Shown one piece after another: positions 14,654 through 32,885 of a stretch of 64,000 bases of DNA. How positions within the stretch are numbered: position 1 is the stretch's first letter; each line of letters opens with the position of its first letter. This stretch comes from an uncultured Candidatus Saccharibacteria bacterium. Lineage in GTDB: Bacteria > Patescibacteriota > Minisyncoccia > Minisyncoccales > JANBVM01. The notes under the pieces are model-generated. The model made no database searches and had not been told where the DNA came from. It worked only from the letters and a program-made list of their open reading frames with translations. The position numbers were made by a program, and so were the translations under genes. The stretch lies in the NCBI GenBank assembly GCA_964514375.1, contig CAZEQH010000001.1:17303-81302 (forward strand), in the 5' to 3' direction.

Positions 14654-14657
14654 AAAG

Positions 14658-16799: not shown

Positions 16800-16822
16800 A
16801 TCTTCTTTATTTTCACCCTATG

Positions 16823-17341
16823 TTATTCGCTTATTATTTTCAACTGATGCTTAAGTTCTTTAACTATTTGATTGATAATATCCCTGTTATCCACCTTCCT
16901 CCCAATTTCTATTTTAAGTGAAGTGGCGGTATTTTCCAGTTCCGCGGGGAACTTGCCTATATTGGTATTAAGGCCGATACCCATAATGGAAAATTTTACC
17001 TCAGACCCTATGACGGCTTCCGTAAGGATGCCTGCCACCTTTTTCCGGTTAATGTAGACGTCATTGGGCAGCTTGATAAGAGGTTCTAAATCGAAGTTTT
17101 CCTTGATAACCTTGGCGACCACAAAAGCTGCCAGGATGGTAAGAGTCTGTATGTCTTCCACCGTGCTTTTCGGCAGGATTACGGAAAAATAAAGGCCGCC
17201 TTTCGGGGAAAACCAGAAATCTTTTTTTCTGCCGTGGCCCGCCGTCTGTTCTTCGGCCCAGACAACCAGCCAGGGTTTATGTTTTTTCCCCTTAGCTAAA
17301 ATATTGGTGGAGGAAACTTTTTTATATTTCTCAATTTTCAT
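16823..17341 (-). CDS. birA: Biotin-protein ligase, catalytic domain only
   Basis: STN...EEQTAGHGRKKDFWFSPKGGLYFSV...NDVYINRKKVAGIL. Short (172 aa), without an HTH or a C-terminal domain. Confidence 0.75.
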   Translation of the reverse strand: MKIEKYKKVSSTNILAKGKKHKPWLVVWAEEQTAGHGRKKDFWFSPKGGLYFSVILPKSTVEDIQTLTILAAFVVAKVIKENFDLEPLIKLPNDVYINRKKVAGILTEAVIGSEVKFSIMGIGLNTNIGKFPAELENTATSLKIEIGRKVDNRDIINQIVKELKHQLKIISE

Positions 17342-17343
17342 AA

Positions 17344-17742
17344 TTATTCCATTATAATTAATACGGTTCCTTCCTTCACGTTTTGTTCTTTTTCCACTTT
17401 AATCTTTTTTATCTTTCCTTTGGAATCTGAAACAATTTCATTTTCCATTTTCATGGCAGACAGGAGGATTACCTTCCTGTCCTTTTCTATAGATTCTCCT
17501 TCCGCCACGAAAATTTCAGAAACCGTACCGGAAATGGGAGCTCTTATTTCTTTTTCCCCAAAATTTTTTTTGGGCAGGGAAGTTCCGGCAAGGGAAAGAC
17601 CTTGGCCCTTCTCACCACCTTTCTGCTTAAAGTTAAATTCTTCTCCTCCCACTTTTATTTTAACAGAGTCTGTCCCCTCGGGCTTTATTTCCACTACATA
17701 TTCTTTATTCCTGATATTCAGTTTAAACTTTTTTTCCTTCAT
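17344..17742 (-). CDS. Biotin carboxyl carrier protein
   Basis: C-terminal biotinyl domain with the SAMKMENEI biotinylation motif. 132 aa. Confidence 0.85.
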   Translation of the reverse strand: MKEKKFKLNIRNKEYVVEIKPEGTDSVKIKVGGEEFNFKQKGGEKGQGLSLAGTSLPKKNFGEKEIRAPISGTVSEIFVAEGESIEKDRKVILLSAMKMENEIVSDSKGKIKKIKVEKEQNVKEGTVLIIME

Positions 17743-17747
17743 AATTA

Positions 17748-19292: not shown

Positions 19293-19911
19293 AAATGTAT
19301 GGTTTTTTTGAAAGGATTGATATTTCTCTCATTATAATGTCGGTAGTCTTTCTTAAAAGTTTGTAATATCGGCCGTTATCTTCACTTATTCCTTCCTCTT
19401 CTGAAAACCTTAAAGGTTTTCCTATGGATACTATCCTTTTGGCAGAATACGGCACCCTGCTGAGACCTATGGTCAAAACGGGGCAGCCGCTTCTCAGGGC
19501 TAATTCCGCCACGCCGGTTTTTCCTCTCAGCAATCCTCTCTTTCTGTTGGTATCTCCTTCCGGGAAGAGCACGACAATTTCCCCTTTTTCCAGACAGCTT
19601 ATCATTTTTTCCATAATGGTTTTTCTGTCACCCGCCTTTCTGTTAATGATTATAGGCTCTGAAAAATAATAAAGAAGGCCTGATTGGACAGCAGTCATAA
19701 TGGTATCCAGAGCGCCCACGAAACGCAAGCTTCTCAGCTTTTCTTTCAGTACGTTGCCGATAAACCAGTAATCTAAACTGTCTATGTGGTTGGAGGCCAC
19801 AATGAAGCTTCCCTGCTGGGGTATATTCTCCCTACCCTCTATCCTGTCCGTAAAAAGGTTGGCGGCAGGCAGCGTGAGAAGCCTGCAGAACCAAACAAAA
19901 AGTGTTTTCAT
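19282..19911 (-). CDS. plsC: 1-acyl-sn-glycerol-3-phosphate acyltransferase family protein
   Basis: Acyltransferase motifs NHIDSLD and FPEGDT. 11-nt overlap with accC, 4-nt overlap with the upstream plsC. Confidence 0.8.
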   Translation of the reverse strand: MKTLFVWFCRLLTLPAANLFTDRIEGRENIPQQGSFIVASNHIDSLDYWFIGNVLKEKLRSLRFVGALDTIMTAVQSGLLYYFSEPIIINRKAGDRKTIMEKMISCLEKGEIVVLFPEGDTNRKRGLLRGKTGVAELALRSGCPVLTIGLSRVPYSAKRIVSIGKPLRFSEEEGISEDNGRYYKLLRKTTDIIMREISILSKKPYIYGD

Positions 19912-20576
19912 TTTTCTTCCATCTGAGACTTTAATAAGGCTATTTCCCTCATTACCTTGTCCGTTATCTTGATAAGAAAATCCCTTTTTTCTATATCGTT
20001 CAATTCTTCTTTCTTTCTTCCCTCCAGCTCTTTTTCAAAGTAGATGGGCTTTCCAATGTTTATTTTAATGATTCTTTTAATTTTCAGTTTTCCGCCCGGG
20101 GGCAGCAGTTTGAAGGTGCCGCTGATGGCGGCCGGAAGAATAGGGGTTCCTGTCTCAAAAAAAATTTTCGCTACTCCCCATTTTCCTCTCCCCAATTTTC
20201 CGGTCCTGGTCCTGGTGCCTTCGGGATAAATAATCAAACTGTCGCCTTTCTTTGCAAATTCTATCGCCTCTTCTATCACTTTTCTTTTCGAGCCTTCATC
20301 TTTTCTGTTGAGGCGAATAACGCCTGCTATAAAGTAGACAATGTATAATATCAGCTTGGCCAGGCCTTCGTAGTTATCGGTCTGTCCTATAAAATGGAAT
20401 CTTCGGGGTACGCAGATATAGCCGTTGGCTATTTCGTCCAGATGGCTTTGGTGGTTGGTGGCCAGTATAAAATTCCTGTCAGGCAAATTACCCCATCCTT
20501 TTACCTGTCGGATAAATAATCTCTTGACTATGGGTGCTAAAAATATTTTACAGAACCAGGAAACAGCTCTGTTCAT
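19908..20576 (-). CDS. plsC: 1-acyl-sn-glycerol-3-phosphate acyltransferase
   Basis: NHQSHLDE and YPEGTRTRTG motifs. Start trimmed to MNRAVSWF (ATG 20576), which gives an ATGA overlap with the upstream stop. The track ORF extends to 20675 inside the FabK gene. Confidence 0.85.
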   Translation of the reverse strand: MNRAVSWFCKIFLAPIVKRLFIRQVKGWGNLPDRNFILATNHQSHLDEIANGYICVPRRFHFIGQTDNYEGLAKLILYIVYFIAGVIRLNRKDEGSKRKVIEEAIEFAKKGDSLIIYPEGTRTRTGKLGRGKWGVAKIFFETGTPILPAAISGTFKLLPPGGKLKIKRIIKINIGKPIYFEKELEGRKKEELNDIEKRDFLIKITDKVMREIALLKSQMEEK

Positions 20577-21511
20577 AGTTCTTCCGCCTTTTCCCGAATA
20601 ATTCTCCGGGAATCTTCCATTATATCTTTTATTATTTCGGCGCAGGTTTTGATGTCTGAGATTCCGCCGGCACATAATCCGCAGAGCAGGGGTGCATGCT
20701 CTATGTTGCCGCTCTCTATCTTGGAGCTAGAGAATCTGTCAGCCCTTATCTCTTCCGGAAAGGCATTCTGCTCTTCCATTTTCTTGATTTTCTCGGTCAG
20801 TTTATTTTCGATGGCTCTTACCGGATATCCGGTAAACCTGGCTGCCACAATAATGTTTTCTTCCGTCGCTTCCAGGATGGCCTTCTTATAGTTATCATGG
20901 GCCAAACATTCTTTGCTGGCGAGGAACCTGGTGCCCAGCTGGACTCCATCTGCCCCCAGCATGAAAGCTGCGGCAGCTGTCCTGCCGTTGTATATCCCGC
21001 CTGCCGCAATAAGGGGTATATTGAGGTATTCGGCTGCCTGGGGGACAAGGACCATAGTTGTGACTTTACCAATATGGCCTCCTGATTCCAGCCCCTCAAC
21101 TACCACTGCATCAGCCCCGTTATCCTCCATTTTTTTAGCTAACCGTGACAATCCTACTACCGGAATTGCTTTGATTCCGGCCTTTTTTAAATAGGGAAAA
21201 AGAGGCAGAGGGTTGCCTCCACCGGTAAATACGATGGGAACCTTCTCCTTTATGACCACCTCGGTAAGCTCCTGTATTTTAGGATTTCTCAACAGGAGAT
21301 TGGCACCGAAAGGTTTGTCGGTAAGTTTTTTTGTCTTCTGAATTTCCTCTTCCAGCCAGGAAGCGGGCAGAAACCCTGCTCCTATTACTCCCAATCCGCC
21401 GGCATTGGAAACCGCTGAAACCAAGGCAGAATCAGATATTCCCGCCATACCTCCCTGAATAATGGGATACTTTATTTCGAGAAGCTCGGTCAGTTTATTT
21501 TTTTTGGGCAT
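20573..21511 (-). CDS. NMO/FabK-type FMN-dependent enoyl reductase
   Basis: YPIIQGGMAGISDSALVSAVSNAGGLGVIG and GADGVQLGTRFLASKEC, the nitronate monooxygenase/FabK TIM-barrel pattern. 312 aa. Confidence 0.75.
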   Translation of the reverse strand: MPKKNKLTELLEIKYPIIQGGMAGISDSALVSAVSNAGGLGVIGAGFLPASWLEEEIQKTKKLTDKPFGANLLLRNPKIQELTEVVIKEKVPIVFTGGGNPLPLFPYLKKAGIKAIPVVGLSRLAKKMEDNGADAVVVEGLESGGHIGKVTTMVLVPQAAEYLNIPLIAAGGIYNGRTAAAAFMLGADGVQLGTRFLASKECLAHDNYKKAILEATEENIIVAARFTGYPVRAIENKLTEKIKKMEEQNAFPEEIRADRFSSSKIESGNIEHAPLLCGLCAGGISDIKTCAEIIKDIMEDSRRIIREKAEEL

Positions 21512-21522
21512 GTTGGTATGTA

Positions 21523-23019
21523 TTAGTCGTTAACTATTAAAGGGTCTTTTTTTAGGATGCTGTTGGCCTCTTCAACAAGTTCTGTCAGCAGTTCCTTTAC
21601 GGTAACTATCTTTTCTATTCTCCAGAAATTGGAACCTGCAAAGACCAGTCCGTTTTCTATGTCTCCCTTACGGGCGTTTTCCAGCGCTTCTAGAATACAG
21701 TAACTCTTATCGCATACTATGCCTATGCATCCCTGGCATTTTTTAGGGTCGGGCTTGGGGGCTTTGCCTGCCAGGATTTTATCGACGAGAGGACTGCGGA
21801 TGGCTCTGCCCGGCAGGCCTACGGGCGAATGAATGATTACTCCGTCTTCTTTACTCGCTTTCAGGTAAGCTTCTTTGAAGTTTATGTGTGCGTCGCATTC
21901 CTTAGTGGCTACAAAACGGGTAGCCATCTGCACTCCTTTGGCTCCCGCCCTGAGCATCTCTACTATGTCTTTTCCGTCAAAGATGCCGCCGGCCGCTATT
22001 ACCGGTATTCTGACCTCATTCACCACTTCCTTCACAATATCTATGGTCTTGCGGAAGGGATGTCCTTCTGGAAATCCGAGATGACCTCCGGCATCCTTTC
22101 CTTCTATCACTACAGCAGCAGCTCCCATATCCTCTCCCTTTTTGGCTACTTTAAGCGACGAGGCCATGGAGAATATGGGCACATTGAATTTTTCTCCGAG
22201 CTTGAAAATGTCGTTTCTAAATCCGGCGCCCTGGATTACCAGATTAATGCCTTCTTCCATGGCCGCCGTTACAAGTTCGGTGAAACGGCTGACGACGCCC
22301 ATAATATTGATACCTATCATTCCTTCTGGGCCGGCGATTTCCCTGGCTTTTCTGATTTCTGCCTTCACTTCTTCAGGATATCTTATGCCGGAAACAGCTA
22401 CTATCCCCACAGCTCCATTCTTGGCAACGTTTCCTGCCAGATTGTGCAGGGCCACCCTTACCGCCATGCCTCCCTGGATGATGGGGATTTTAGCAAAGAC
22501 GCTTCCTATCTTTAAGGGAGGTAATTCTTTCTTGGCAATGGGCTTTCCCTGTTTCGCTTCCTCTTTTTTTTCTGCTAATTTGTCTTTATCCACCACGGCC
22601 ACTACGAATCTTACTTCGCATTTCCTGTCTCCCTTGACCAGGACCTCCCCGACGAAGTTGGCTATCTTCTGACCATAAAACCCTAGGAGTTTTACCTTGT
22701 ACTTTATTTTATCTCCCGGGAATACAGGCTTGAAAAATAAAGCGCTCCTAACCTGATAGGCCAGGAGATGTTTGTCCTTATGGCTTTTCCCCATTTTCTG
22801 CCTTAGGAGGACGGTAGCGGTCTGAGCCATTCCTTCCACCATCAATACGCCGGGCATAATGGGAAAGTCCACGAAATGTCCTTTAAAATAGAGGTCCTGC
22901 GGCGAAGTGTTTTTATAACCTATAATGGTATTTCCTTTAATACTCTCTATCTCTTCCACCCAGAGGAAAGGGTCATCATAGGGAATGATTTTCTTAATCT
23001 GTTCTTTATTAAACATCAT
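21523..23019 (-). CDS. Fusion protein: FabZ-like hot-dog dehydratase (N) + NMO/FabK-type reductase (C)
   Basis: N-terminal FKGHFVDFPIMPGVLMVEGMAQ. Linker KDKLAEKKEEAKQGKP. C-terminal PIIQGGMAVRV...GAKGVQMATRFVATKEC. 498 aa in one uninterrupted frame. Confidence 0.8.
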   Translation of the reverse strand: MMFNKEQIKKIIPYDDPFLWVEEIESIKGNTIIGYKNTSPQDLYFKGHFVDFPIMPGVLMVEGMAQTATVLLRQKMGKSHKDKHLLAYQVRSALFFKPVFPGDKIKYKVKLLGFYGQKIANFVGEVLVKGDRKCEVRFVVAVVDKDKLAEKKEEAKQGKPIAKKELPPLKIGSVFAKIPIIQGGMAVRVALHNLAGNVAKNGAVGIVAVSGIRYPEEVKAEIRKAREIAGPEGMIGINIMGVVSRFTELVTAAMEEGINLVIQGAGFRNDIFKLGEKFNVPIFSMASSLKVAKKGEDMGAAAVVIEGKDAGGHLGFPEGHPFRKTIDIVKEVVNEVRIPVIAAGGIFDGKDIVEMLRAGAKGVQMATRFVATKECDAHINFKEAYLKASKEDGVIIHSPVGLPGRAIRSPLVDKILAGKAPKPDPKKCQGCIGIVCDKSYCILEALENARKGDIENGLVFAGSNFWRIEKIVTVKELLTELVEEANSILKKDPLIVND

Positions 23020-23756
23020 ATTGATAACCCTCCGTCGATTTTGATTATGGTTCCCGTGATAAATCCGGCTTTTTTCGAGGACAGGAAGGCCACCAGGTGG
23101 GCAACCTCCTCGGGTTTACCGAATCTGCCCAGAGCGGTTAGTTTTTTAACCTGTATTTTGAAATCTTCCGGAAGTCTTTCCGTTAATGAGGTTTCTATGA
23201 AACCGGGCGCCAGCGCATTAACGGTAACCTCAAACCTTCCTACTTCCTTTGCCAGAGCCTTAGTAAAACCTGCAATACCTGCTTTGGCGGCTGCGTAGTT
23301 AGTCTGGCCGAAGTTGCCCCGGAGCCCTACTAGGGAGGACATGTTAATTATCCTGCCTTTGCTCTCTATTATCATGGGCAGGGCGGCTTTGGTGCAATTG
23401 AAGACTCCTGTGAGATCAATATCTATTACGTTCTGCCATTCCTCCCGGCTCATCTTAGCTAGGGTTCTGTCTTTGCATATACCTGCGTTATTAACAAGAA
23501 TATCCAATTTCCCGAACTCTTTTTTTACCGTTTGCATCATGACTTCTACTTCATCCAGGCTGGATACGTCGGCCGTAAAATAAGCAGCCTTCGTTCCCTT
23601 CCCTTCTAAATCACCTTTTAGATTTTTAAGACTCTCTTCCTGTGCCTTAATGTCATTTAAAGCGATTAAGGCGCCTTGGGAAGCAAGTTCCAGGGCAATA
23701 ACCCTGCCTATTCCTTGAGAGGAGCCGGTAATAAGAACTACTTTTTCTTTAAGCAT
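23016..23756 (-). CDS. fabG: 3-oxoacyl reductase (SDR)
   Basis: TGSSQGIG, NNAGI, S...YAAAKAG catalytic pattern. 246 aa. 4-nt overlap with the downstream fusion gene. Confidence 0.9.
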   Translation of the reverse strand: MLKEKVVLITGSSQGIGRVIALELASQGALIALNDIKAQEESLKNLKGDLEGKGTKAAYFTADVSSLDEVEVMMQTVKKEFGKLDILVNNAGICKDRTLAKMSREEWQNVIDIDLTGVFNCTKAALPMIIESKGRIINMSSLVGLRGNFGQTNYAAAKAGIAGFTKALAKEVGRFEVTVNALAPGFIETSLTERLPEDFKIQVKKLTALGRFGKPEEVAHLVAFLSSKKAGFITGTIIKIDGGLSI

Positions 23757-25417: not shown

Positions 25418-25465
25418 ATTTGTGTATTTTTAAAATGTTAGCAGAAATGATAGACTATATATTAC

Positions 25466-25978
25466 ATGAAAACACTTTATTTGCCAGCGGAGATTAGGGA
25501 GGAACTCAGGAAACCCTGGGGTATCTCCATCTTCGGCACTGAAAAAGAAATAAGGGAAAAATACAGCCAGATTATAAAGGAGAAAAAATACAGCCAGGTC
25601 ATCACGGTAGGAGACAAGTGCTCTCTCAGCCTTACCTCTGATATTAAAATATTTGATGGGAAGATAAACCGGAAAGGCATAGAGAGCATCATTCCTTTTG
25701 AGTTGAAGGTTTTTAATCCTGCAGGCACTATCCAGGAAGAGGCGTGGCAGACTGTCGAGGAGGCTATTCGGGGAAAAAAGAACGTTTTTGTGAAAGGAGA
25801 GGAAGACCTTCTTGTAATTCCCGCGGTCTTGCTGGCGCAGAAGAATACGGTCGTGGTGTACGGATTGCGCGGCAGGGGAATATGTCTGGTGGAGGTTTCC
25901 CCTAAAATCAAACAGGATTTCCAAAACATAATAAGCAGATTCCAGGCTAGACGGTCCTCTGAAGAATGTGAACCGTAA
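25466..25978 (+). CDS. DUF359 family protein (archaeal-type GTP-dependent dephospho-CoA kinase family)
   Basis: VITVGD, IFDGKINRK, VKGEEDLLVIPAVL, VVYGLRGRG match my recollection of DUF359 conserved blocks. The 3-prime end overlaps the convergent thiolase by 32 nt. Confidence 0.65.
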   Translation: MKTLYLPAEIREELRKPWGISIFGTEKEIREKYSQIIKEKKYSQVITVGDKCSLSLTSDIKIFDGKINRKGIESIIPFELKVFNPAGTIQEEAWQTVEEAIRGKKNVFVKGEEDLLVIPAVLLAQKNTVVVYGLRGRGICLVEVSPKIKQDFQNIISRFQARRSSEECEP

Positions 25979-27074
25979 CACTGCCTCCAGTCCCTCCGAT
26001 ATTGTGGCAGAGTCCCGTTCTTGGAACGGGATTTATTTGTCTTTCTTTTTCACATCTGCCCCTTATCTGCTTTGTAATCTCGTAAATCTGGGCCAGCCCT
26101 GTGACCGATATGGGATGTCCCTTGGCTTTTAGGCCCCCGGAAGTATTAACAGGAAGCGCACCGTCCCGGTTGATTTTTCCGGAACGGATAAGCGCGGCCC
26201 CCTTACCTTCAGCGCATAATCCCAGGTCTTCATAAGAAAATAATTCCACAGACGTGAAGGCATCGTGAACCTCAGCTATTTCAATATTCTCAGGCTTCAG
26301 CCCGGCCTGTTGGAAGGCCTGATGGGCGGCCTTTCCCGTAGCCAGAAAGTGATGCAGGTCTTTCCGGCCGAAGGTAAGCATGTGGTCTGTGGCGAATCCC
26401 GAGCCGATAATCTTGACGTCTGTTTTATCACGGGTGAGAACCGCCGCCGCTCCTCCGTTTACCGACAGGGAACAATCCATAAGACGGAGTGGGGAAGCTA
26501 CCACGGGAGAATTTTTAATTTTATCCAGAGATACGGGGCGCTGGTAAAAATAGGCCTTAGGATTAAGGGCCGCATTCTGGTGGTTCTTAAAGGCGACGAG
26601 GGCCAGATCATCCATAGAGGCCCCGTATTTTTGCATATACTGCTGCCATACCAAAGCATTCTGGACCGGAAATAAAAGCCCTTCCGTCTGTTCTATCATC
26701 CTTTCGGAAGCGGATAGTATCCAGTCAACGGTTACTTCACTTCTGTTGTCAACGAGCTTCTCCCCGCTTACTACCAGTACGTTGTTAAAACCTAAGCGGT
26801 TGGCCGTCCAGACAGCCACTCCTCCCCCTGCGCATACGGAAGGCAGCTCTATGATAGGGACATTGGTCTTGAATATATCGGATACCACTGATACCTTATG
26901 GGTTTGGTGTTCTCCTCCGGCTGCACTGGATACGGCCGAGATTACGATAGCATCCATGTCGGATATGCCCATGGAGGCATCCTCCAAGGCTTCCAAGGCA
27001 GCCTCAAAAGCCTGTTTCCACCAGGGTTTTTGGGAATAATCAAACTTTGTCATTCCTACTCCTTTGATATACAT
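25947..27074 (-). CDS. Thiolase-superfamily condensing enzyme, archaeal/SCP-x-like type
   Basis: 375 aa. Nucleophile region ELPSVCAGGGVA. C-terminal NTSGGLKAKGHPISVTGL and CHNIGGTGGS. No KAS-type motifs. Confidence 0.8.
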   Translation of the reverse strand: MYIKGVGMTKFDYSQKPWWKQAFEAALEALEDASMGISDMDAIVISAVSSAAGGEHQTHKVSVVSDIFKTNVPIIELPSVCAGGGVAVWTANRLGFNNVLVVSGEKLVDNRSEVTVDWILSASERMIEQTEGLLFPVQNALVWQQYMQKYGASMDDLALVAFKNHQNAALNPKAYFYQRPVSLDKIKNSPVVASPLRLMDCSLSVNGGAAAVLTRDKTDVKIIGSGFATDHMLTFGRKDLHHFLATGKAAHQAFQQAGLKPENIEIAEVHDAFTSVELFSYEDLGLCAEGKGAALIRSGKINRDGALPVNTSGGLKAKGHPISVTGLAQIYEITKQIRGRCEKERQINPVPRTGLCHNIGGTGGSVTVHILQRTV

Positions 27075-27087: not shown

Positions 27088-28872
27088 TTAGTTTTCTGGA
27101 AGCCAGCTTACAGTGAGGCACCCTGAGCCGAAACCGGCTGTACTGGCGGCAGGATTGGCACCTATGAAAGACACTTCTGCTTCCATTCTGCTTTTTAATT
27201 CCTTCTTCATTAATTCCGCCTCCTCGAAATTGTCGCTGTGGCCTATCAATATCCTGATTTTTTTACCGTCCTTCCTCTTTTTTTTACTGACCCTGATGGT
27301 TTTTTTGACTAGGGCCTGACGGTAATCTTCTGCCAATACCACACCTCCCTTCCTATACTGTCCCTTTTTAATTTCAAATAGGGGGTTGAGTTTGATTATC
27401 TTGTCAACGTTACGCGCCCATCTCACATAGGAAGATTTCATCCCCTCCACTTTATCAAGCAGTTTTAGGTCCTTTGCGGCGATATAGGAACGGACTTGTG
27501 GAATGAGCTCTCTGAGCTTTTTTATTATATCTTCCAGTTCCCACTGTTCCTGTATTAATTCTATAGCGCGCAGCAATATCAGAGATTCTCCTCCGGCAGT
27601 ATTCAGCGAATCTAATACGAAAACTCTTTTAGGGTTATCCAATCCTTTTTTTGCCTCCATGCCGTTTTTGAATGAATTGAAGATTTTGGAAGAACTGGTG
27701 ATACACAGCACTTTTTCAAAGTTTTTCAGCTGTTCCTGAAAGATTTTGAAATAATCATCTGCGTTCGGCGGAGAGAAGGAGGGCATAGAAAAATCTTTTC
27801 CCTCTTCCCTTGAATGAAAGAGGACACTGTCTTCAAGAGGGGGCACGCTTCGAAAACTAATTTTTTGGATTTGATATCTTTCTTCTATCTTGGGTAGCAG
27901 GAGCGCTTGGTTGTCGACCATCAATCCTATGGATATCGTTCTCAAAGATTGCTCTCCCGCTATTTCATTGGACATGTCTTCCATCCTCAGGTCCCGGATT
28001 TGCCCCAAATTCCTCATCACTTGTTTTACCTCTTCAGGATAATCGGTGTGGATATGTATTTTTATCCTATTTTTTACCCTGACAATGTCAAGGCAGTTGC
28101 CTAACCCTTTCAGTTTTTCCGTGATTTCCTGCTGACTGAAAGGAGAATCCTCAATCAGGGAAACTATTTCATATCTGTTGGACAGCACCTGGATGAATCT
28201 CTTGATTTGTTCTGCGGAAGATTCTTCCTTTTCTTCTGCCGCCGTTTCCTTTTTCCCTTCCAGTGTCTCCAGATAACTTTCTAGTATAACGAGAAATCCC
28301 AGGCCTCCCGCATCTACCACATTGGCTTTTTTAAAGATTTCCATCTTTTCCCTGGTTTCCATAAGGGCCTTCCCGGCATTCTCTTTCGCTCTCCTGAATA
28401 TTTTTATAAGGTCCTGTTCTTTTTTAGATTGCTCCCGGAAGGTTGCGGCCGCCTCATCAATTACGTCCAGTATGGTTCCATCTCTGGGATGCTGTATGCT
28501 TTCTCTCGCTCTGTCGGCTCCTTTTTCGAAACCTCTGGCTAATCTTTCGGCGTCCAAAGACTCCGGACTGGAGCTTGACGATATTCCCTCCAAGAATCCC
28601 GCTAAAAAGCCGGTATAAATTACACCGGCATTGCCTTGAGCCTGGCTCAGCGCTCCTTCCAGTATGGCATCGGCCAGGCTGGAGATATTTTCGAATTCTT
28701 TATTTTCGACAGCTTCTTTTATGCCGGACAGGGTCTTGGCGATATTATTGCCGGTATCCTGGTCCGGTACGGGAAAAACGTTTATTTTATTGATTTCTTC
28801 TTTTTCCTGTTCAATCTTGCTCCAAGAACTCAACATCATCTCCTTTAATTCTCTTTTTGTGAGATGTAGCAT
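27088..28872 (-). CDS. DAK2 (DhaL-like) domain fused to a DegV-like domain; FakA/YloV-like fatty acid kinase component
   Basis: N-terminal FPVPDQDTGNNIAKTL (DhaL nucleotide site). YloV-like middle (IHIHTDYPEEV). C-terminal DegV blocks (SFSPPNADDYF, CITSSSKIFNSF, VLDSLNTAGGESL). Confidence 0.75.
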   Translation of the reverse strand: MLHLTKRELKEMMLSSWSKIEQEKEEINKINVFPVPDQDTGNNIAKTLSGIKEAVENKEFENISSLADAILEGALSQAQGNAGVIYTGFLAGFLEGISSSSSPESLDAERLARGFEKGADRARESIQHPRDGTILDVIDEAAATFREQSKKEQDLIKIFRRAKENAGKALMETREKMEIFKKANVVDAGGLGFLVILESYLETLEGKKETAAEEKEESSAEQIKRFIQVLSNRYEIVSLIEDSPFSQQEITEKLKGLGNCLDIVRVKNRIKIHIHTDYPEEVKQVMRNLGQIRDLRMEDMSNEIAGEQSLRTISIGLMVDNQALLLPKIEERYQIQKISFRSVPPLEDSVLFHSREEGKDFSMPSFSPPNADDYFKIFQEQLKNFEKVLCITSSSKIFNSFKNGMEAKKGLDNPKRVFVLDSLNTAGGESLILLRAIELIQEQWELEDIIKKLRELIPQVRSYIAAKDLKLLDKVEGMKSSYVRWARNVDKIIKLNPLFEIKKGQYRKGGVVLAEDYRQALVKKTIRVSKKKRKDGKKIRILIGHSDNFEEAELMKKELKSRMEAEVSFIGANPAASTAGFGSGCLTVSWLPEN

Positions 28873-28981: not shown

Positions 28982-29635
28982 TTACTTGAACTTTTCCTCC
29001 AGTTCTTTCAGAATCCTGGCGGCCAAATCCTTTCCGCCCAGTCCGAAGGCTAATCCTACGGTTAAGGCGGTGGTAGCTACCATTCCTATGAAAATGGCTA
29101 AGATTAAAGGTTGGGTAATCCTTAATTGATAGAGGATGGCCAGTATGGCAAAAAACCAGATTATCCATCGTATAGAAGTGCCTAAAAATTTTGAGTAAAT
29201 TATTTTTTCCTTTTCCAGTGTCCCCACTACCACCTTTTGGGAAAAGTCTGCCAGGAAGGCTGCCACTATGAAAATCAATGCCGCCGTAAAGATGTTGGGC
29301 AGATAGATTATTACCTGTCGGAGCAAGGAACTAAACTGGCTTAGACCGAGAAGGTCAGAGGCGCTCATTAAAAACAGCAGTATGATGAACCATTTTATTA
29401 TTTCGCCAAAAAATTTGGCGCCGTCCAGTTCTATATCCAGCCTGGCGAAAGCAGAGTAGATTCCTATCCTTTTCAGGACTTGGTTGAGTCTGATTTTATA
29501 TAGGAAGGCCTTCACCAGGTTTTCTATAAACTTGGCGGCGAAAATTCCCACAAGGAAAAGAAAGCTTGCTCCCAAAATAGAGGGAGAAATACCGGTCAAA
29601 GTATTTAATAATGAGTTAAATATTTCTTGGAACAT
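28982..29635 (-). CDS. Multi-pass membrane protein (repeated conserved-TM-helix type)
   Basis: 217 aa, about five TM helices, two internally similar halves. No catalytic motif. Confidence 0.55.
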   Translation of the reverse strand: MFQEIFNSLLNTLTGISPSILGASFLFLVGIFAAKFIENLVKAFLYKIRLNQVLKRIGIYSAFARLDIELDGAKFFGEIIKWFIILLFLMSASDLLGLSQFSSLLRQVIIYLPNIFTAALIFIVAAFLADFSQKVVVGTLEKEKIIYSKFLGTSIRWIIWFFAILAILYQLRITQPLILAIFIGMVATTALTVGLAFGLGGKDLAARILKELEEKFK

Positions 29636-29646: not shown

Positions 29647-30207
29647 TTACCATTTTGCCTGATGGAGATTCAAGATGTAACCCAGCCTGTTTACTGCTAT
29701 ATGTAAGAAAAAGGTTAACAGCAGCAGGGTAATCCAAACGGTCATAGGAATGTTAACTATAGGAAAGAGGGTTAATATAAAAGACGAGCCGATGACGTAA
29801 TTAGTCTGGTCGAAGGGAATGAATGGAGCTCCTGGTTTCAGATTTAACCTTCTCTTGACTAAGGCAAACAAAACATCTCCTGCCACAGCTCCTCCCGAAA
29901 GCAGGAGTCCGAGCGCCGGTATGTTAACCTGGCGGTAATTAAAGAGGCTTATATCTGCGAATGCTGGAAAGCGGAAAAGCCAGGACTGGAAGAAGATTAC
30001 GATTAGCCCTGCAATAACGCCGCAGACAGCTCCCCGCCATGTTTTATGGGAACCCAGCAGAGGTTTTCCATCTACAAAAATTTTCCCAAAATCTATGGGT
30101 TTATCAAGAAAATTTAACAGACCCAGTTTCTTGGCAAGAGGAGGCGTCATATTGGTGAAATAGGCCGGGAGGAAAAAATAAAAGCTGGAAATCAGCAGCT
30201 TGAACAT
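29647..30207 (-). CDS. CDP-archaeol synthase (CarS/DUF46)-like CTP transferase
   Basis: FLPAYFTNMTPPL...PIDFGKIFVDGKPLLGSHKTWRG matches the archaeal CarS signature as I recall it (PAYxAN...PID.G...G.R.LG..KTWRG). 186 aa, multi-pass. Confidence 0.65.
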   Translation of the reverse strand: MFKLLISSFYFFLPAYFTNMTPPLAKKLGLLNFLDKPIDFGKIFVDGKPLLGSHKTWRGAVCGVIAGLIVIFFQSWLFRFPAFADISLFNYRQVNIPALGLLLSGGAVAGDVLFALVKRRLNLKPGAPFIPFDQTNYVIGSSFILTLFPIVNIPMTVWITLLLLTFFLHIAVNRLGYILNLHQAKW

Positions 30208-30249
30208 GATTAGCTTATTTGAGATTTGGTTTTATGTTAAGATTAATCT

Positions 30250-30930
30250 ATGAAATGCGATTTTCACGTGCATACCTGTTATTCCTATGATAGCACTTCT
30301 CATCCTCATCAAGTAGTGCAGAGGGCATTGGAAAAAGGAATCGGATGTTTAGCCGTTACCGACCACGGAGAAATAAGGGGAGCTTCGGCCGCGAAAAAGT
30401 ATGCATCCGATAAATCAGTTTTAATTATAACGGGTATTGAGGTCAAGAGTAAATCGGGCGATATTATAGGGTTGGATGTGAAAAAGATTATTCCCGACGG
30501 CTTGTCGGCATCCGAAACCATAGCCGCAATTAAAGAACAGGGAGGATTGGCCGTCGTTCCTCATCCCTTTTCCCGCATTTACGGCTTTAGAAGCGACATA
30601 TCAGATTTTATCGGGCAAATAGACGCCCTGGAGGTCAGGAATGCCCTATTATCCAAACATGAAAACGAAAAAGCCTGGCAGTGCGCCAAAGAATACGGTC
30701 TCGCTTTTACAGCGGGTTCTGACGCCCATTCTCTGGAAGGTCTTGGACGGGTTTTTCTTGAAATCCCCGGCATCAACCTTAATGAAGAACAGATTCTGGA
30801 GGCGGTGAAATTGAAAAATGGAGTGCCTCGAGGGTCAGAAGCAAATTTTACGGAGAAGGCCGTGAGCTTCTGCCAGAGGACTTTTGCTAAAATAAGTCAT
30901 TATGCTGGAGCAAAAAAGGCAAAAATTTAA
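30250..30930 (+). CDS. PHP-domain metal-dependent phosphoesterase
   Basis: MKCDFHVHTCYSYDS, AVTDHGE, VVPHPF, GSDAHS, the PHP His/Asp ligand set. Confidence 0.85.
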   Translation: MKCDFHVHTCYSYDSTSHPHQVVQRALEKGIGCLAVTDHGEIRGASAAKKYASDKSVLIITGIEVKSKSGDIIGLDVKKIIPDGLSASETIAAIKEQGGLAVVPHPFSRIYGFRSDISDFIGQIDALEVRNALLSKHENEKAWQCAKEYGLAFTAGSDAHSLEGLGRVFLEIPGINLNEEQILEAVKLKNGVPRGSEANFTEKAVSFCQRTFAKISHYAGAKKAKI

Positions 30931-31498
30931 ATTTGCCGAAGAAAGGATTGGGAGCTTTTTTGCTAAATTCGGGTTGAACGCCAATAACTATACCGTAATT
31001 TCTATCTTTTTAATTTTACTTTCTTTTTATTTTCTAAGCAGGGCCGATTTTATTCCATCCCTAATCTTTTTTCTGGCGGCAGGTTTCATGGATTTGGTTG
31101 ACGGGGCAGTAGCCCGGTTCAATAAAAAAGCTTCCAAGAGAGGAGCTTATCTGGACACCGTCTGCGACCGTTATGTTGAGGGGATAATCTTTTTAGGATT
31201 CCTTACCCTGCCCCTGCCTTACTATTTTTCTATTCCGGCCAAGGTATGGATATTTATTGCCTTTTTCGGCTCGCTTATGACAACCTATGCCAAGGCCGCA
31301 GCCAAGGAAAAAGGATTAGTTTCAGAGGAATTAAAGAAAGGCCTATTGGGCAGAGGAGAGAGGATGATTCTGATTGCTCTGGCCATGGTTCTCGGGGCTT
31401 TCAACATTTATTGGATCCTCTATCCTATTATCGCGCTGGCTGTTTTTTCCAATCTCACGGCTCTCCAGCGCATTTATCTATCCCTCGCTCCAAGATAA
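30902..31498 (+). CDS. CDP-alcohol phosphatidyltransferase
   Basis: DLVDGAVARFNKKASKRGAYLDTVCDRYVEG fits DGxxAR...G...D...D. 198 aa, multi-pass. 29-nt overlap with the PHP gene. Confidence 0.85.
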   Translation: MLEQKRQKFKFAEERIGSFFAKFGLNANNYTVISIFLILLSFYFLSRADFIPSLIFFLAAGFMDLVDGAVARFNKKASKRGAYLDTVCDRYVEGIIFLGFLTLPLPYYFSIPAKVWIFIAFFGSLMTTYAKAAAKEKGLVSEELKKGLLGRGERMILIALAMVLGAFNIYWILYPIIALAVFSNLTALQRIYLSLAPR

Positions 31499-32362
31499 GG
31501 CCAGGGCATCGGGGCCCGCTATGGCGCCTACCACGTTGTTGACCAGATTAATAAAAATAATCTGGCTGTTTTTAATCTCCTGCTCAACCATACCTTTTAG
31601 GCGGTTAGCAGCTGCCAGGTTGTCTCCGTGGGTGATAACCACTCTTATACGCTGGCCCTCAGCTGCGGATTTTTTAGTCTTCTCCTGAATTGTTTTGGCC
31701 AGGGCAACGGCCGTGTCTTTGGCTCCGAACTTCACTCCCATAGGTTTTAAGGCTCCTTTCTGCATTCCGATTACCGGACGGATTCCCACGTTTCCCATTT
31801 TTCTTACCCATCCTGCTACTGTAGAAGACATGCGGCCGGAAAATTCTATCCATTTGGGGTCCTGGAACACTATAGTAAGGTGCGTCCTGTCCCGCCAGAA
31901 TTTTTCCAGGTTTTCCGCAATCTGCCCGGCGTTTAATTCCCCTTGTTCCAGAAGCTCTTGGGCTTTCAAAACCATAAGGGCTTCGGCTCCGCTGGCGTTT
32001 AAGGAGTCTACCACGAAAACCTTCTCTCTCTTTTCGGCAGGCAGGAATTTTTTCGCCTGTATGGCGGAATTATAGGTTCCGGAAAGCTTGGAGACTATGG
32101 TGACGCATATTAATTCTTCAAATTTTTCAAATTGCTTATTATAAACGTCCAGAAAATTCTTGGGAGAGGGCTGGGACGTTTTACCGAAGGTTTTCATTCC
32201 TCTTTTTTCTACCTCTCTCATTTTTTGATAAACGTTTTCTCCGGGCAGGTCCTGGATTTCCGGCCAGTCTAATTTGACCGGCACTACCCCTATGTCGTAT
32301 TTTTCTATTATTTCATGGGTTAAATCTGCGCCTTCGTCTGTCACTAATCCGATTTTTTCCAT
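31478..32362 (-). CDS. DegV family fatty-acid-binding protein (FakB-like)
   Basis: IGLVTDEGADL, TSQPSPKNFLDVY, VSKLSGTYNSA, VVDSLNASGAEAL. 294 aa. Confidence 0.9.
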   Translation of the reverse strand: MEKIGLVTDEGADLTHEIIEKYDIGVVPVKLDWPEIQDLPGENVYQKMREVEKRGMKTFGKTSQPSPKNFLDVYNKQFEKFEELICVTIVSKLSGTYNSAIQAKKFLPAEKREKVFVVDSLNASGAEALMVLKAQELLEQGELNAGQIAENLEKFWRDRTHLTIVFQDPKWIEFSGRMSSTVAGWVRKMGNVGIRPVIGMQKGALKPMGVKFGAKDTAVALAKTIQEKTKKSAAEGQRIRVVITHGDNLAAANRLKGMVEQEIKNSQIIFINLVNNVVGAIAGPDALALSWSEG

Positions 32363-32798: not shown

Positions 32799-32811
32799 AT
32801 TATAAAGATTT

Positions 32812-32885
32812 TGGTGGACCTGACGGGAATCGAACCCATGTCTCTGCAATGCGAATGCAGTGCTCTGCCCCTGAGCTACAGGCCC
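32812..32885 (-). tRNA. tRNA-Ala (CGC), CCA encoded
   Basis: Acceptor GGGCCTG/CAGGTCC with G3:U70, anticodon stem CTGCA/TGCAG with loop TTCGCAT, 3-prime ACCA. Confidence 0.9.

What the first reader, a model, noticed from the sequence alone, without database searches (positions are those of the whole stretch)
29647..31498. CarS/DUF46-like (CDP-archaeol synthase family) gene next to a PHP phosphoesterase and a CDP-alcohol phosphatidyltransferase in a genome with bacterial PlsY/PlsC
Seen: the 186-aa multi-pass protein carries FLPAYFTNMTPPL...PIDFGKIFVDGKPLLGSHKTWRG. I recognise this as the conserved core of archaeal CDP-archaeol synthases. It is divergently paired with PHP (HVHT...DH...HP...DAH) and a CDP-alcohol phosphatidyltransferase (DGxxAR...G...D...D); the last two overlap by 29 nt. 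No CdsA-type gene is visible in the window. Established: CarS activates archaeol-type lipids with CTP and is distantly related in fold to bacterial CdsA. Inference: this homolog may replace CdsA and make CDP-diacylglycerol (or an ether lipid). The transferase would add a head group and the PHP enzyme would remove the terminal phosphate, together completing a phospholipid head-group pathway.
Basis: partly seen in the sequence, partly recalled or inferred. Interest (0 to 1): 0.65.

Follow-up and report, generated by a model that had tools for sequence, protein, structure and literature searches.

The report
Archaeal-type lipid head-group genes in CPR bacterium
A tiny-genome (CPR/Patescibacteria) bacterium carries an archaeal-type three-gene module for activating and decorating membrane lipids, set inside an otherwise bacterial fatty-acid lipid gene cluster, so it probably uses an archaeal enzyme family to do the job of the bacterial enzyme CdsA.

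Summary
29647-30207(-) encodes a full-length CarS-family protein: Pfam PF01864 at 118 bits, and a confident model whose only significant PDB match is ApCarS. PHP (30250-30930,+) and a CDP-alcohol phosphatidyltransferase (30902-31498,+) overlap by 29 nt.

The window is Patescibacteria (Paceibacterota/Nealsonbacteria-like). At least 172 species genomes encode an orthologue. In 80 loci it sits in a conserved acyl-lipid supercluster (FakA-DegV, DegV, PlsY, PlsC, Fab genes, thiolase, sometimes UppS). No CdsA was found in the window or in 1.2 Mb of related loci.

The transferase is AIPS/PIPS-like and keeps both arginines that bind a phospho-alcohol's phosphate. The same CarS + transferase + PHP trio occurs as tight operons on DPANN-type archaeal contigs.

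About 9 of 80 related loci also carry a GGPP-synthase/GGGPS/DGGGPS/GGR ether-lipid set. The window does not.

Best reading (about 0.5): a CdsA replacement making CDP-diacylglycerol, followed by a phospho-head-group transferase and a PHP phosphatase. The main rival is a true CDP-archaeol (ether-lipid) role. Substrate specificity and genome-wide absence of CdsA remain untested. New variant of a known kind; moderately high interest.

The parts
29647..30207 (-). CarS-family (PF01864) five-helix membrane CTP:lipid-phosphate cytidylyltransferase, 186 aa. This is the finding's core gene.
   Evidence: Pfam 118 bits, full length. NCBIfam CarS equivalog 135.6, below its cutoff of 148. ApCarS 5GUF: phmmer E 6.6e-12. 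AF2 pLDDT 93; Foldseek 5GUF TM 0.70/0.81 against TmCdsA about 0.4. K55, D111, K118, R119 and D133 are conserved; N136 is clade-specific. dN/dS 0.11.
30250..30930 (+). PHP-family metal-dependent phosphoesterase, 226 aa. Predicted phospholipid head-group phosphate phosphatase.
   Evidence: PF02811 + PF13263; CehA/McbA domain model 91.8, above its cutoff of 80. H6, H8, D14, H39, E64, H105, D158 and H160 are invariant in 45 orthologues. AF2 pLDDT 95; nearest folds are RNase AM, TM0559 and Cv1693. Divergent neighbour of CarS-like in 41 of 76 loci. 34% identical PHPs lie next to CDP-alcohol transferases and CarS on archaeal contigs L094 and L095. Cationic amphipathic C-terminal helix.
30902..31498 (+). 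CDP-alcohol phosphatidyltransferase of the AIPS/PIPS type, 198 aa. Overlaps PHP by 29 nt.
   Evidence: PF01066. Best NCBIfam hit is archaetidylinositol-phosphate synthase at 130.5 (cutoff 180), then PIP synthase at 81; PgsA models reach only 24-29. PDB hits are IPCT-DIPPS and PIP synthases. All 8 motif residues plus R151/R154/R190 (= MtPIPS R152/R155/R195) are conserved in 30/30 orthologues.
28982..29635 (-). 217-aa membrane protein with MscS-type conserved TM helix repeats, directly downstream of CarS-like. Role unknown.
   Evidence: PF05552 61 bits. Adjacent to CarS-like on the same strand in 49/80 loci. dN/dS 0.04.
27088..28872 (-). FakA-DegV fusion (fatty-acid kinase with a fused FakB-like domain). 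Supplies acyl-phosphate for PlsY.
   Evidence: Dak2 + FakA-like_M + DegV. Within 5 kb of CarS-like in 38/80 loci.
31478..32362 (-). DegV/FakB-type fatty-acid-binding protein.
   Evidence: PF02645 166 bits; TIGR00762 171.5.
25947..27074 (-). Archaeal-type thiolase-domain protein. Candidate condensing enzyme of an ACP-independent fatty-acid pathway.
   Evidence: Thiolase_C_1; NF004720 318.8 bits. Syntenic in 25-30 loci.
19282..20675 (-). Two PlsC-type 1-acylglycerol-3-phosphate acyltransferases (19282-19911 and 19908-20675).
   Evidence: PF01553 at 87 and 77 bits.
13964..15245 (-). Two PlsY glycerol-3-phosphate acyltransferases (13964-14653 and 14658-15245), directly next to NusA.
   Evidence: PF02660 at 104.5 and 136.5 bits. 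In five related loci the ether-lipid genes are inserted between these two PlsY genes.
15249..23756 (-). Fatty-acid synthesis block that also spans the two PlsC genes listed separately above: ACC carboxyltransferase, biotin ligase, AccB, AccC, PlsC x2, FabK, FabZ-FabK fusion, FabG.
   Evidence: Pfam.
8155..8715 (-). PAP2-family lipid phosphatase. Rival candidate for the head-group dephosphorylation, or an Und-PP phosphatase.
   Evidence: PF01569 85.8 bits. Best NCBIfam hit is an undecaprenyl-diphosphatase at 60 bits; PgpB scores 29.7.

Best explanation
The three genes form a lipid head-group module of archaeal type that this Patescibacteria (Paceibacterota/Nealsonbacteria-like) genome uses within a bacterial acyl-lipid pathway.

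**Proposed route**
1. FakA-DegV and DegV turn fatty acids into acyl-phosphate.
2. PlsY and PlsC make phosphatidic acid.
3. The CarS-family enzyme transfers CMP from CTP to that lipid phosphate, giving CDP-diacylglycerol. This is the job done by CdsA in other bacteria.
4. The AIPS/PIPS-like transferase swaps CMP for a phosphorylated alcohol. Inositol-1-phosphate is most likely; a glycerol phosphate is possible.
5. The PHP phosphatase removes the terminal phosphate to give the mature lipid (PI or PG type).

**Shown:** family, fold and conserved catalytic core of all three proteins; purifying selection; conserved synteny; the archaeal counterpart operons.

**Inferred:** the diacyl substrate, the identity of the alcohol, the PHP substrate, and the absence of CdsA from the whole genome.
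For: **CarS family and fold**
- Pfam, PDB sequence match, model and fold search agree.
- K55, D111 and K118 align with TmCdsA K167, D219 and K226, which are essential. D133 is invariant.

**Distribution**
- 172 species genomes, all Patescibacteria-type.

**Synteny in 80 loci**
- 55 have an acyl or prenyl lipid gene within 5 kb.
- 46 have Fak, PlsY or PlsC within 5 kb.
- PlsY is directly adjacent on the same strand in L071-L083.
- UppS, the classic neighbour of cdsA, is adjacent or in the cluster in 12 loci.
- UppS has no CdsA beside it on three long contigs.

**No CdsA found**
- No signature or phmmer hit in the window plus 83 loci, apart from weak hits to the CarS-like proteins themselves.

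**No ether-lipid genes in the window**
- No GGGPS, DGGGPS, GGR or polyprenyl synthase in 64 kb.
- Both sites where relatives carry them are uninterrupted here: PlsY-PlsY-NusA, and after FabG.
- The window's CarS clade, including the complete genomes CP179887 and CP179889, is acyl-only within the 10 kb held on each side of the gene.

**Transferase and PHP**
- The transferase keeps the CDP-alcohol motif and both phosphate-binding arginines in 30/30 orthologues (PMC4634129).
- PHP lies next to an AIPS-like transferase on L094 and a PgsA-like transferase on L095 in archaea.
- PHP is replaced by a His_Phos_1 phosphatase in L038, L070 and L073.

**Selection and lipid data**
- dN/dS 0.10-0.15 for the trio.
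- Lipids of CPR-sized cells were all acylglycerols, and Nealsonbacteria have PlsY and PlsC but no PlsX or ACP (PMC7242380).
Against: - Characterised CarS enzymes discriminate against phosphatidic acid, and AfCarS does not complement an E. coli cdsA mutant (Jain 2014, as reviewed in PMC9385802).
- The protein is a clear CarS, not a CdsA, in sequence and fold. No substitution separates CarS-like proteins of acyl-only loci from those of loci with ether-lipid genes.
- About 9 of 80 related loci carry GGPPS, GGGPS, DGGGPS-like and GGR genes in the same cluster, so the ancestral role may be CDP-archaeol synthesis.
- N136 replaces an Asp found in 124/135 other family members. It lines up with the CdsA D246/D249 pair, so catalysis may be altered.
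- The whole genome could not be searched for CdsA.
- No inositol-1-phosphate synthase was seen in the window or the loci.
- The NCBIfam equivalog cutoffs for CarS and AIPS are not reached.
Confidence: 0.5

Rival explanations
1. It is a genuine CDP-archaeol synthase. The trio activates and decorates isoprenoid ether lipids (DGGGP or archaetidic acid) to give archaetidylinositol-type lipids. Those lipids would be made by genes elsewhere in the genome or scavenged from archaeal hosts.
For: - Family, fold and AIPS-like partner are archaeal in type.
- The nearest labelled relatives are DPANN archaea at 41-44% identity.
- Archaeal contigs hold the same trio next to UbiA.
- Five related loci have GGPPS-like, GGGPS (TIGR01769 200.7, above its 161.55 cutoff), DGGGPS-like (235 bits) and GGR genes in the same cluster. 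Three more have UbiA and GGR, two of them with a polyprenyl synthase.
- Known CarS enzymes prefer DGGGP over phosphatidic acid (PMC9385802).
- Nealsonbacteria attach to Methanothrix (bioRxiv 10.1101/2022.04.20.488981).
Against: - None of these ether-lipid genes is in the 64-kb window, and both insertion sites are empty.
- The window's clade is acyl-only within the sequence held.
- The gene is most tightly linked to Fak, PlsY and PlsC, which are also present in every ether-gene locus.
- CPR-size-fraction lipids were all acylglycerols.
- E. coli lysate supports Nealsonbacteria growth, which its authors took to exclude a need for archaeal lipids.
Confidence: 0.27
2. The PHP protein is not a lipid phosphatase. 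It is a nucleotide or oligoribonucleotide phosphoesterase of the RNase AM / pAp-phosphatase type that merely sits nearby. The terminal phosphate would be removed by another enzyme, such as the PAP2 protein at 8155-8715.
For: - The closest characterised PHP structures and models are RNase AM and 3',5'-nucleotide bisphosphate phosphatase.
- A PAP2 lipid phosphatase is encoded in the window.
- In 12 or more loci PHP is next to CarS-like with no transferase detected nearby.
Against: - PHP lies next to CarS or the transferase in 48/80 bacterial loci and on two archaeal contigs, with two different phospho-alcohol transferase types.
- The 29-nt overlap suggests coupled translation.
- It is replaced by an unrelated phosphatase family at the same place in L038, L070 and L073.
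- It has a cationic amphipathic C-terminal helix, conserved in orthologues and in L095.
- It lacks the roughly 60-70 extra residues of RNase AM-type proteins (226 against about 290 aa).
- The PAP2 protein scores best as an Und-PP phosphatase.
Confidence: 0.25
3. The CarS-like protein is a CTP-dependent lipid kinase or another CTP-transferase acting on polyprenyl substrates, for example undecaprenol recycling in the manner of dolichol kinase, rather than a liponucleotide synthase.
For: - UppS is adjacent or in the cluster in 12 loci.
- From my own knowledge, the wider CTP-transferase superfamily includes CTP-dependent dolichol and phytol kinases.
- The clade-specific N136 shows an altered active site.
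Against: - It matches CarS, not the kinase branch, over its full length with the CarS fold.
- A CDP-alcohol transferase that needs a CDP-lipid donor is its frequent neighbour.
- The uppS-cdsA pairing is itself the canonical bacterial arrangement (own knowledge).
Confidence: 0.05

Closest known systems
CDP-archaeol synthase CarS (Aeropyrum pernix ApCarS, PDB 5GUF; Archaeoglobus fulgidus AfCarS)
   Same: - Same Pfam family over the full length.
- Same five-helix fold (TM 0.70/0.81).
- Same conserved polar core: N19, D39, K55, G110-D111, K118-R119-R120, D133-Q134, H169.
   Different: - Bacterial host.
- About 27-30% identity to ApCarS, and below NCBIfam's equivalog cutoff (135.6 < 148).
- Invariant Asn at position 136, where 92% of the family has Asp.
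- Embedded in a Fak/PlsY/PlsC/Fab cluster rather than next to GGGPS/DGGGPS in this genome.
- The predicted substrate is therefore diacyl phosphatidic acid, which characterised CarS enzymes use poorly.
Bacterial CDP-diacylglycerol synthase CdsA (TmCdsA, PDB 4Q2E/4Q2G)
   Same: - Predicted reaction and pathway position: after PlsY/PlsC, near UppS, before a CDP-alcohol transferase.
- Distant homology, with shared K, D and K residues (TmCdsA K167, D219, K226).
   Different: - 186 aa and five helices, against about 270 aa, nine helices and a dimerisation domain.
- No CdsA signature.
- Foldseek TM only about 0.4.
- PF01148 matched marginally over 70 positions.
Archaetidylinositol-phosphate synthase and bacterial PIP synthase (MtPgsA1 6H53, RsPIPS 5D92), and the PIP phosphatase step
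   Same: - The transferase scores best against AIPS and PIPS models.
- It has the D1xxD2GxxAR...GxxxD3xxxD4 motif and both phosphate-binding arginines.
- A two-step route with a phosphorylated intermediate is expected.
   Different: - Below the equivalog cutoffs.
- No inositol-1-phosphate synthase seen nearby.
- The only identified bacterial PIP phosphatase is the PgpA-like BT_1525 (PMC9246714). It is called unidentified for mycobacteria and archaea (PMC4634129, PMC9385802). Here the candidate is a PHP-family enzyme.
Bacteria with archaeal ether-lipid genes (Ca. Cloacimonetes and other FCB-group bacteria; one Parcubacteria genome noted by Villanueva et al. 2021, PMC7852524)
   Same: Some relatives of the window's organism carry GGGPS, DGGGPS-like and GGR genes next to bacterial lipid genes.
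   Different: - The Cloacimonetes MAGs lack CarS and are proposed to use CdsA instead.
- Here the reverse is seen: CarS is present, no CdsA was found, and in this window there are no ether-lipid core genes.

Membership tests
CarS / CDP-archaeol synthase (PF01864) | Full-length match to the family HMM above the gathering score | tested here: met
   118 bits against a cutoff of 22; residues 1-186 on model positions 1-175/175.
CarS / CDP-archaeol synthase (PF01864) | NCBIfam equivalog NF003114 score at or above its curated cutoff (functional equivalence) | tested here: not met
   135.6 bits against a cutoff of 148.
CarS / CDP-archaeol synthase (PF01864) | Five-transmembrane-helix CarS fold | tested here: met
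   AF2 pLDDT 93.2. Foldseek: 5GUF E 4e-6, TM 0.70/0.81, the only hit with E <= 0.001.
CarS / CDP-archaeol synthase (PF01864) | Conserved polar core of the CTP/metal cavity | tested here: inconclusive
   K55, D111, K118, R119 and D133 are identical in all 135 other representatives and in ApCarS. N136 replaces an Asp present in 124/135.
CarS / CDP-archaeol synthase (PF01864) | Genomic company of GGGPS and DGGGPS, the source of the DGGGP substrate | tested here: not met
   None in the 64-kb window. Present in about 8-9 of 80 related loci. The rest of the genome was not searchable.
CarS / CDP-archaeol synthase (PF01864) | CTP:DGGGP cytidylyltransferase activity with preference over phosphatidic acid | not testable with these tools
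   Needs an enzyme assay.
CdsA / phosphatidate cytidylyltransferase (PF01148) | Full-length family match and the S-x-[LIVMF]-K-R-x4-K-D...H-G-G-x-D-R signature | tested here: not met
   Only 25.5 bits over profile positions 169-238 of 264. No signature match.
CdsA / phosphatidate cytidylyltransferase (PF01148) | Nine-helix dimeric CdsA fold | tested here: not met
   Foldseek against 4Q2G/4Q2E: TM 0.38-0.42, E 0.2-0.5.
CdsA / phosphatidate cytidylyltransferase (PF01148) | Pathway position: linked to PlsY/PlsC and UppS, upstream of a CDP-alcohol transferase (works like CdsA) | tested here: met
   Synteny in 80 loci and three UppS neighbourhoods.
AIPS/PIPS-type CDP-alcohol phosphatidyltransferase | D1xxD2GxxAR...GxxxD3xxxD4 motif | tested here: met
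   D64, D67, G68, A71, R72, G81, D85 and D89. Conserved in 31/31, except R72, which is K in 7.
AIPS/PIPS-type CDP-alcohol phosphatidyltransferase | Two arginines that bind the acceptor's phosphate (MtPIPS R155 and R195) | tested here: met
   R154 and R190, plus R151 of the RxxR motif, in 30/30 orthologues (PMC4634129).
AIPS/PIPS-type CDP-alcohol phosphatidyltransferase | Equivalog-level score (NF040950 AIPS or NF045883 PIPS) | tested here: not met
   130.5 < 180 and 81.1 < 170. PgsA models reach only 24-29 bits.
AIPS/PIPS-type CDP-alcohol phosphatidyltransferase | Inositol-1-phosphate synthase in the genome | tested here: inconclusive
   None recognised among the annotated ORFs of the window or the loci. 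The rest of the genome was not searchable.
PHP-family phosphoesterase | Complete set of metal-binding His/Asp/Glu residues and the PHP barrel | tested here: met
   H6, H8, D14, H39, E64, H105, D158 and H160 are invariant. pLDDT 95. PHP structures are the top hits.
Phospholipid head-group phosphate phosphatase (Pgp/PIP-phosphatase function) | Hydrolysis of PGP, PIP, AGP or AIP | not testable with these tools
   Inferred only from gene linkage across domains and from replacement by His_Phos_1.

The most novel reading that the evidence does not exclude
Paceibacterota cross the 'lipid divide' at the head-group stage. They run an archaeal-derived CarS + phospho-alcohol transferase + PHP module on bacterial diacyl lipids in place of CdsA.

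In some species the same single CarS also serves a complete archaeal-type ether-lipid core pathway (GGPPS, GGGPS, DGGGPS, GGR) encoded between two PlsY genes. That would give naturally mixed membranes.

The PHP enzyme would then be the long-missing archaetidyl/phosphatidyl-inositol-phosphate (and glycerophosphate) phosphatase of DPANN archaea and CPR bacteria.
Probability: 0.3. Interest if true: 0.8.

Novelty: new variant of a known kind. Interest (0 to 1): 0.62.

Why it matters
**1. A gap in CPR lipid synthesis.** CPR bacteria are usually described as unable to make their own lipids. Nealsonbacteria were noted as having a 'near-complete' pathway (PMC7242380). The CDP-activation step and the source of acyl-phosphate were not explained. 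This cluster offers candidates for both: the CarS-like enzyme and the FakA-DegV fusion.

**2. CarS as a 'lipid divide' marker.** CarS and CdsA are treated as enzymes that keep archaeal and bacterial lipids apart. A CarS clade working in a PlsY/PlsC context would be a natural counter-example, and an easy one to test by cdsA complementation and in vitro assays. This is all the more so because some relatives also carry GGGPS and DGGGPS.

**3. The missing phosphatase.** The phosphatase that finishes PI or AI synthesis is unidentified in archaea and mycobacteria. The cross-domain linkage of PHP with transferases gives a concrete candidate.

Tried and rejected
- **ApCarS structure paper** (Ren 2017, PMC5674157) is not held. 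Lipid-groove residues could not be named, and I did not try to compare grooves.
- **Walking beyond the window** to the rest of the 83.8-kb contig failed. Only short metagenome contigs carry the end genes.
- **Whole-genome search for CdsA, GGGPS or MIPS** was not possible.
- **AFDB fold library** was unavailable.
- **Promoter and terminator scan** of 28.8-32.5 kb was at chance level.
- **Cluster look-ups** of ten more family representatives gave no organism names. The DPANN affinity therefore rests on two labelled proteins and two archaeal-context contigs. The NJ trees are rough, and I draw no rooting from them.
- **Residues fixed differently** between CarS-like proteins of ether-gene loci and acyl-only loci: none found.
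- **ORFs on the minus strand at 25430-25981** were rejected as spurious. The real gene is the plus-strand DUF359 ORF.
- **A decaying relic** was rejected because of dN/dS 0.11 and the invariant core.
- **E. coli CdsA probe**: the sequence came from memory and served only as a search probe.
Full report
**1. Observation**

- CarS-like: 29647-30207(-), 186 aa.
- PHP: 30250-30930(+), 226 aa.
- CDP-alcohol phosphatidyltransferase: 30902-31498(+), 198 aa.

PHP and the transferase overlap by 29 nt. CarS-like and PHP are divergent with a 42-nt spacer. The transferase and a DegV gene overlap tail to tail by 21 nt.

Family scores:
- CarS-like: PF01864 at 118 bits (cutoff 22) over the whole model. The CdsA family PF01148 gives only a marginal partial hit (25.5 bits, 70 of 264 positions). 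NCBIfam's CarS equivalog scores 135.6, just under its cutoff of 148.
- PHP: PF02811 + PF13263, and it passes the CehA/McbA metallohydrolase domain model.
- Transferase: PF01066. Its best NCBIfam models are archaetidylinositol-phosphate synthase (130.5; cutoff 180) and PIP synthase (81). PgsA models reach only 24-29 bits.

**2. The organism and the window**

The window has 20 scattered tRNA genes and T4SS-pilin-like genes. It also has bacterial housekeeping genes: NusA, IF-2, FtsH, GyrA, RNase Y, ClpP.

Homologues of the CarS-like protein are named by their sources as Patescibacteria, Nealsonbacteria or Paceibacterales. A scan of one genome per species found relatives in 172 stretches. The best 80 are all Patescibacteria-type MAGs and include two complete Nealsonbacteria genomes.

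Around the finding lies a lipid supercluster:
- PlsY x2
- acetyl-CoA carboxylase subunits and biotin ligase
- PlsC x2
- FabK, a FabZ-FabK fusion, and FabG
- BioY and DUF362
- a DUF359 protein resembling GTP-dependent dephospho-CoA kinase
- an archaeal-type thiolase
- a FakA-DegV fusion
- a small MscS-TM-like membrane protein
- then CarS-like, PHP, the transferase and DegV

No CdsA is in the window. Pfam on nearly all long ORFs found none. A CdsA-signature regex and a phmmer probe over all ORFs of at least 70 aa also found none.

**3. The CarS-like protein**

- The only PDB sequence match is ApCarS 5GUF (E 6.6e-12).
- The AlphaFold model is confident (pLDDT 93.2, pTM 0.86).
- Its only significant structural match is 5GUF (TM 0.70/0.81). 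TmCdsA follows at TM about 0.4.
- A profile of the clade aligns to a CdsA probe so that K55, D111 and K118 fall on the motifs KTW-G and GD-x6-KR. In TmCdsA these positions are K167, D219 (Mg/K ligand) and K226, all essential (PMC4083444).
- Across 135 other family representatives, K55, D111, K118, R119 and D133 are invariant.
- One position differs. N136 is invariant in this clade, but it is Asp in 124/135 others, including ApCarS and the DPANN proteins. By its DxxD pattern it lines up with CdsA D246/D249. I cannot say what this change does.
- dN/dS against the closest relative is 0.11, so the gene is not decaying.

**4. Neighbourhood across species**

Of the 80 species loci:

| Feature within 5 kb of CarS-like | Loci |
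|---|---|
| Any acyl or prenyl lipid gene | 55 |
| Fak, PlsY or PlsC | 46 |
| MscS-TM-like gene | 49 |
| PHP | 48 |
| Transferase | 30 |

- PHP is divergent and within 400 nt in 41 of the 76 loci that hold enough upstream sequence.
- In the more distant loci L071-L083, PlsY is immediately adjacent on the same strand.
- UppS is directly downstream in L019, L020 and L026, and in the cluster in nine more loci.
- On three long contigs, the Pfam-annotated neighbourhoods of UppS show no CdsA. Two of them have CarS-like in the same cluster.
- In L038, L070 and L073 a histidine-phosphatase-superfamily gene overlaps the 3' end of CarS-like where PHP is absent.

**5. The transferase and PHP**

*Transferase*
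- All eight residues of the CDP-alcohol motif are conserved.
- R151, R154 and R190 are also conserved in 30/30 orthologues. [quoted passage not shown]
- The acceptor is therefore very probably a phosphorylated alcohol, and the product needs a phosphatase.

*PHP*
- It keeps a full metal-binding set.
- It models confidently.
- It resembles RNase AM, TM0559 and pAp-phosphatase folds. The fold alone does not give a substrate.
- Its C-terminal helix is amphipathic and cationic in 45 orthologues. This fits docking on an anionic membrane surface, but that is an inference.

**6. Archaeal counterparts**

- A search of 1.84 billion representatives found 1,569 family members at E <= 1e-3.
- The nearest labelled ones outside the clade (41-44% identity) are from Woesearchaeota and Nanoarchaeota.
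- The Nanoarchaeota contig L094 has PHP followed by an AIPS-like transferase, then UbiA, CarS, another transferase, a clear PgsA, PIG-L and a GT4 glycosyltransferase.
- Contig L095 carries ribosomal protein S17e and Alba, so it is archaeal. It has CarS, a PgsA-like transferase and PHP as three overlapping genes.
- The window's PHP is 34-35% identical to both archaeal PHPs (E 1e-24 and 3e-19).
- The trio is therefore an archaeal operon type, and PHP follows two different phospho-alcohol transferase types.
- This, together with its replacement by another phosphatase family in one bacterial clade, is my basis for calling PHP a head-group phosphate phosphatase.
- The phosphatase of this step is described as unidentified in archaea and mycobacteria (PMC9385802; PMC4634129). 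Only the PgpA-like BT_1525 is known, in Bacteroides (PMC9246714).

**7. Ether-lipid genes in relatives**

Five loci (L041, L042, L044, L045, L054) show this gene order: CarS - MscTM - FakA - PlsY - GGR - UbiA - polyprenyl synthase - PcrB - PlsY - NusA.
- GGR passes TIGR02032 (188.5 > 158.8).
- UbiA scores best as DGGGP synthase (235 bits; cutoff 296).
- The polyprenyl synthase scores best as IdsA/GGPP synthase.
- PcrB passes the GGGP synthase equivalog (200.7 > 161.55).

L012, L029 and L036 have FabG - UbiA - GGR, followed in L012 and L036 by a polyprenyl synthase; the L029 locus ends within GGR.

The window has none of these genes by tblastn. Both insertion sites are uninterrupted here.

In a tree of the 80 CarS-like proteins, the ether-gene loci form two separate clades among acyl-only loci. 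No residue is fixed differently between the two groups. The window's clade, which includes the complete genomes, shows only acyl-lipid genes within the sequence held.

**8. Interpretation**

*Best reading (about 0.5).* In this genome the CarS-family enzyme takes the place of CdsA and makes CDP-diacylglycerol from the phosphatidic acid produced by FakAB, PlsY and PlsC. The AIPS/PIPS-like transferase then adds a phospho-alcohol, and PHP removes the phosphate.

*Against it.*
- Characterised CarS enzymes prefer DGGGP.
- AfCarS does not rescue an E. coli cdsA mutant (PMC9385802).
- Absence of CdsA is shown only locally.
- N136 is unexplained.

*Main rival (about 0.27).* A true CDP-archaeol role on endogenous or scavenged ether lipids.
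- In its favour: the relatives with ether-lipid genes, and the attachment of Nealsonbacteria to Methanothrix.
- Against it: CPR-size-fraction lipids were all acylglycerols, and E. coli lysate supports Nealsonbacteria growth.

*Smaller rivals.* PHP may be an unrelated nucleotide phosphoesterase. The CarS-like protein may be a polyprenol kinase.

**9. Novelty**

- Annotation pipelines already label these proteins 'CDP-archaeol synthase'.
- Probst et al. 2020 noted the near-complete lipid pathway of Nealsonbacteria.
- Villanueva et al. 2021 noted one Parcubacteria genome with GGGPS and DGGGPS.
- In the searchable literature I found no description of the following: CarS in Patescibacteria, its fixed place in the acyl-lipid cluster, the cross-domain trio with PHP, or the N136 change.
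- I therefore rate it a new variant of a known kind, with moderately high interest.

Noticed in passing
L041:12915-18090 (also L042, L044, L045, L054): Between two PlsY genes, five Paceibacterota loci carry GGR, a DGGGPS-like UbiA, an IdsA/GGPPS-like polyprenyl synthase and a GGGPS that passes the NCBIfam equivalog cutoff. All lie in the same cluster as CarS-like, PHP, the AIPS-like transferase and FakA. This is a near-complete archaeal-type ether-lipid gene set interleaved with bacterial acyl-lipid genes. No G1P dehydrogenase was seen nearby.
   Followed up: partly
L012:15698-19534, L029:17844-20537, L036:14823-18965: A second arrangement: FabG, then a different UbiA-family prenyltransferase (weak, unspecific NCBIfam hits), then GGR, followed in L012 and L036 by a polyprenyl synthase (the L029 locus ends within GGR). 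In L017, GGR sits between FabZ and FabG, so in some loci GGR might serve as an enoyl reductase rather than a prenyl reductase.
   Followed up: partly
window 28982-29635 (-): A 217-aa membrane protein with two MscS-type 'conserved TM helix' repeats sits directly downstream of CarS-like in 49/80 loci. It is the most constrained gene of the group (dN/dS 0.04; 91% identity to L004). Its role is unknown; it could be a partner of the CarS-like enzyme.
   Followed up: partly
window 27088-28872 (-) and 31478-32362 (-): A FakA-DegV fusion and a separate DegV (fatty-acid kinase system) flank the trio. They would supply the acyl-phosphate that PlsY needs. This answers the question raised by Probst et al. 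2020 about Nealsonbacteria having PlsY but no PlsX.
   Followed up: partly
window 15249-27074: The fatty-acid synthesis block has ACC, FabG, a FabZ-FabK fusion, FabK and an archaeal-type thiolase, but no ACP, FabD, FabH or FabF. It also has a DUF359 protein resembling archaeal GTP-dependent dephospho-CoA kinase (25466-25978,+). This fits an ACP-independent, CoA-based pathway of the kind proposed for archaea.
   Followed up: no
window 29800-29811 (codons for D133-N136 of CarS-like): Asn136 is invariant in the Paceibacterota clade and Asp in 124/135 other CarS-family representatives. It aligns with the DxxD pair of CdsA, whose second Asp is a Mg2+ ligand. The consequence is unknown.
   Followed up: partly
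L038:10504-11184, L070:10537-11157, L073:2699-3343: In one Paceibacterota clade a histidine-phosphatase-superfamily (His_Phos_1) gene overlaps the 3' end of CarS-like, and no PHP is nearby. This looks like a non-homologous replacement of the phosphatase partner.
   Followed up: partly
L094:1261-9371 (Nanoarchaeota contig JBHPDN010000020.1): An archaeal lipid head-group island: a radical SAM protein (509 aa), two PHP genes, an AIPS-like transferase, UbiA, CarS, a second transferase, PgsA, a PIG-L deacetylase and a GT4 glycosyltransferase. PIG-L and GT4 suggest glucosaminyl-inositol lipid synthesis.
   Followed up: partly
L090:3472-6297: A second bacterial lineage (its contig has a class A PBP) has a short CDP-alcohol transferase, an unknown 192-aa ORF, CarS-like (Ser at the N136 position) and a flippase-like/LPG_synthase_TM protein in a row.
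   Followed up: no
window 8155-8715 (-): A PAP2-family lipid phosphatase that scores best as an undecaprenyl-diphosphatase. No UppS is in the window, although UppS is in the lipid cluster in 12 related loci.
   Followed up: partly
window 32406-32885: The longest UPF0102 ORF (TTG start at 32849) overlaps tRNA-Ala (32812-32885, minus strand). Gene calls on identical metagenome contigs give a 124-aa product, so the true start is probably further downstream.
   Followed up: no
L051, L052: Two MAG contigs labelled 'Candidatus Pacearchaeota archaeon' carry the bacterial-type context (UPF0102, PlsY, FakA-DegV, PHP) and a CarS-like protein 50-53% identical to the window's. They are probably mislabelled Paceibacterota bins.
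   Followed up: no
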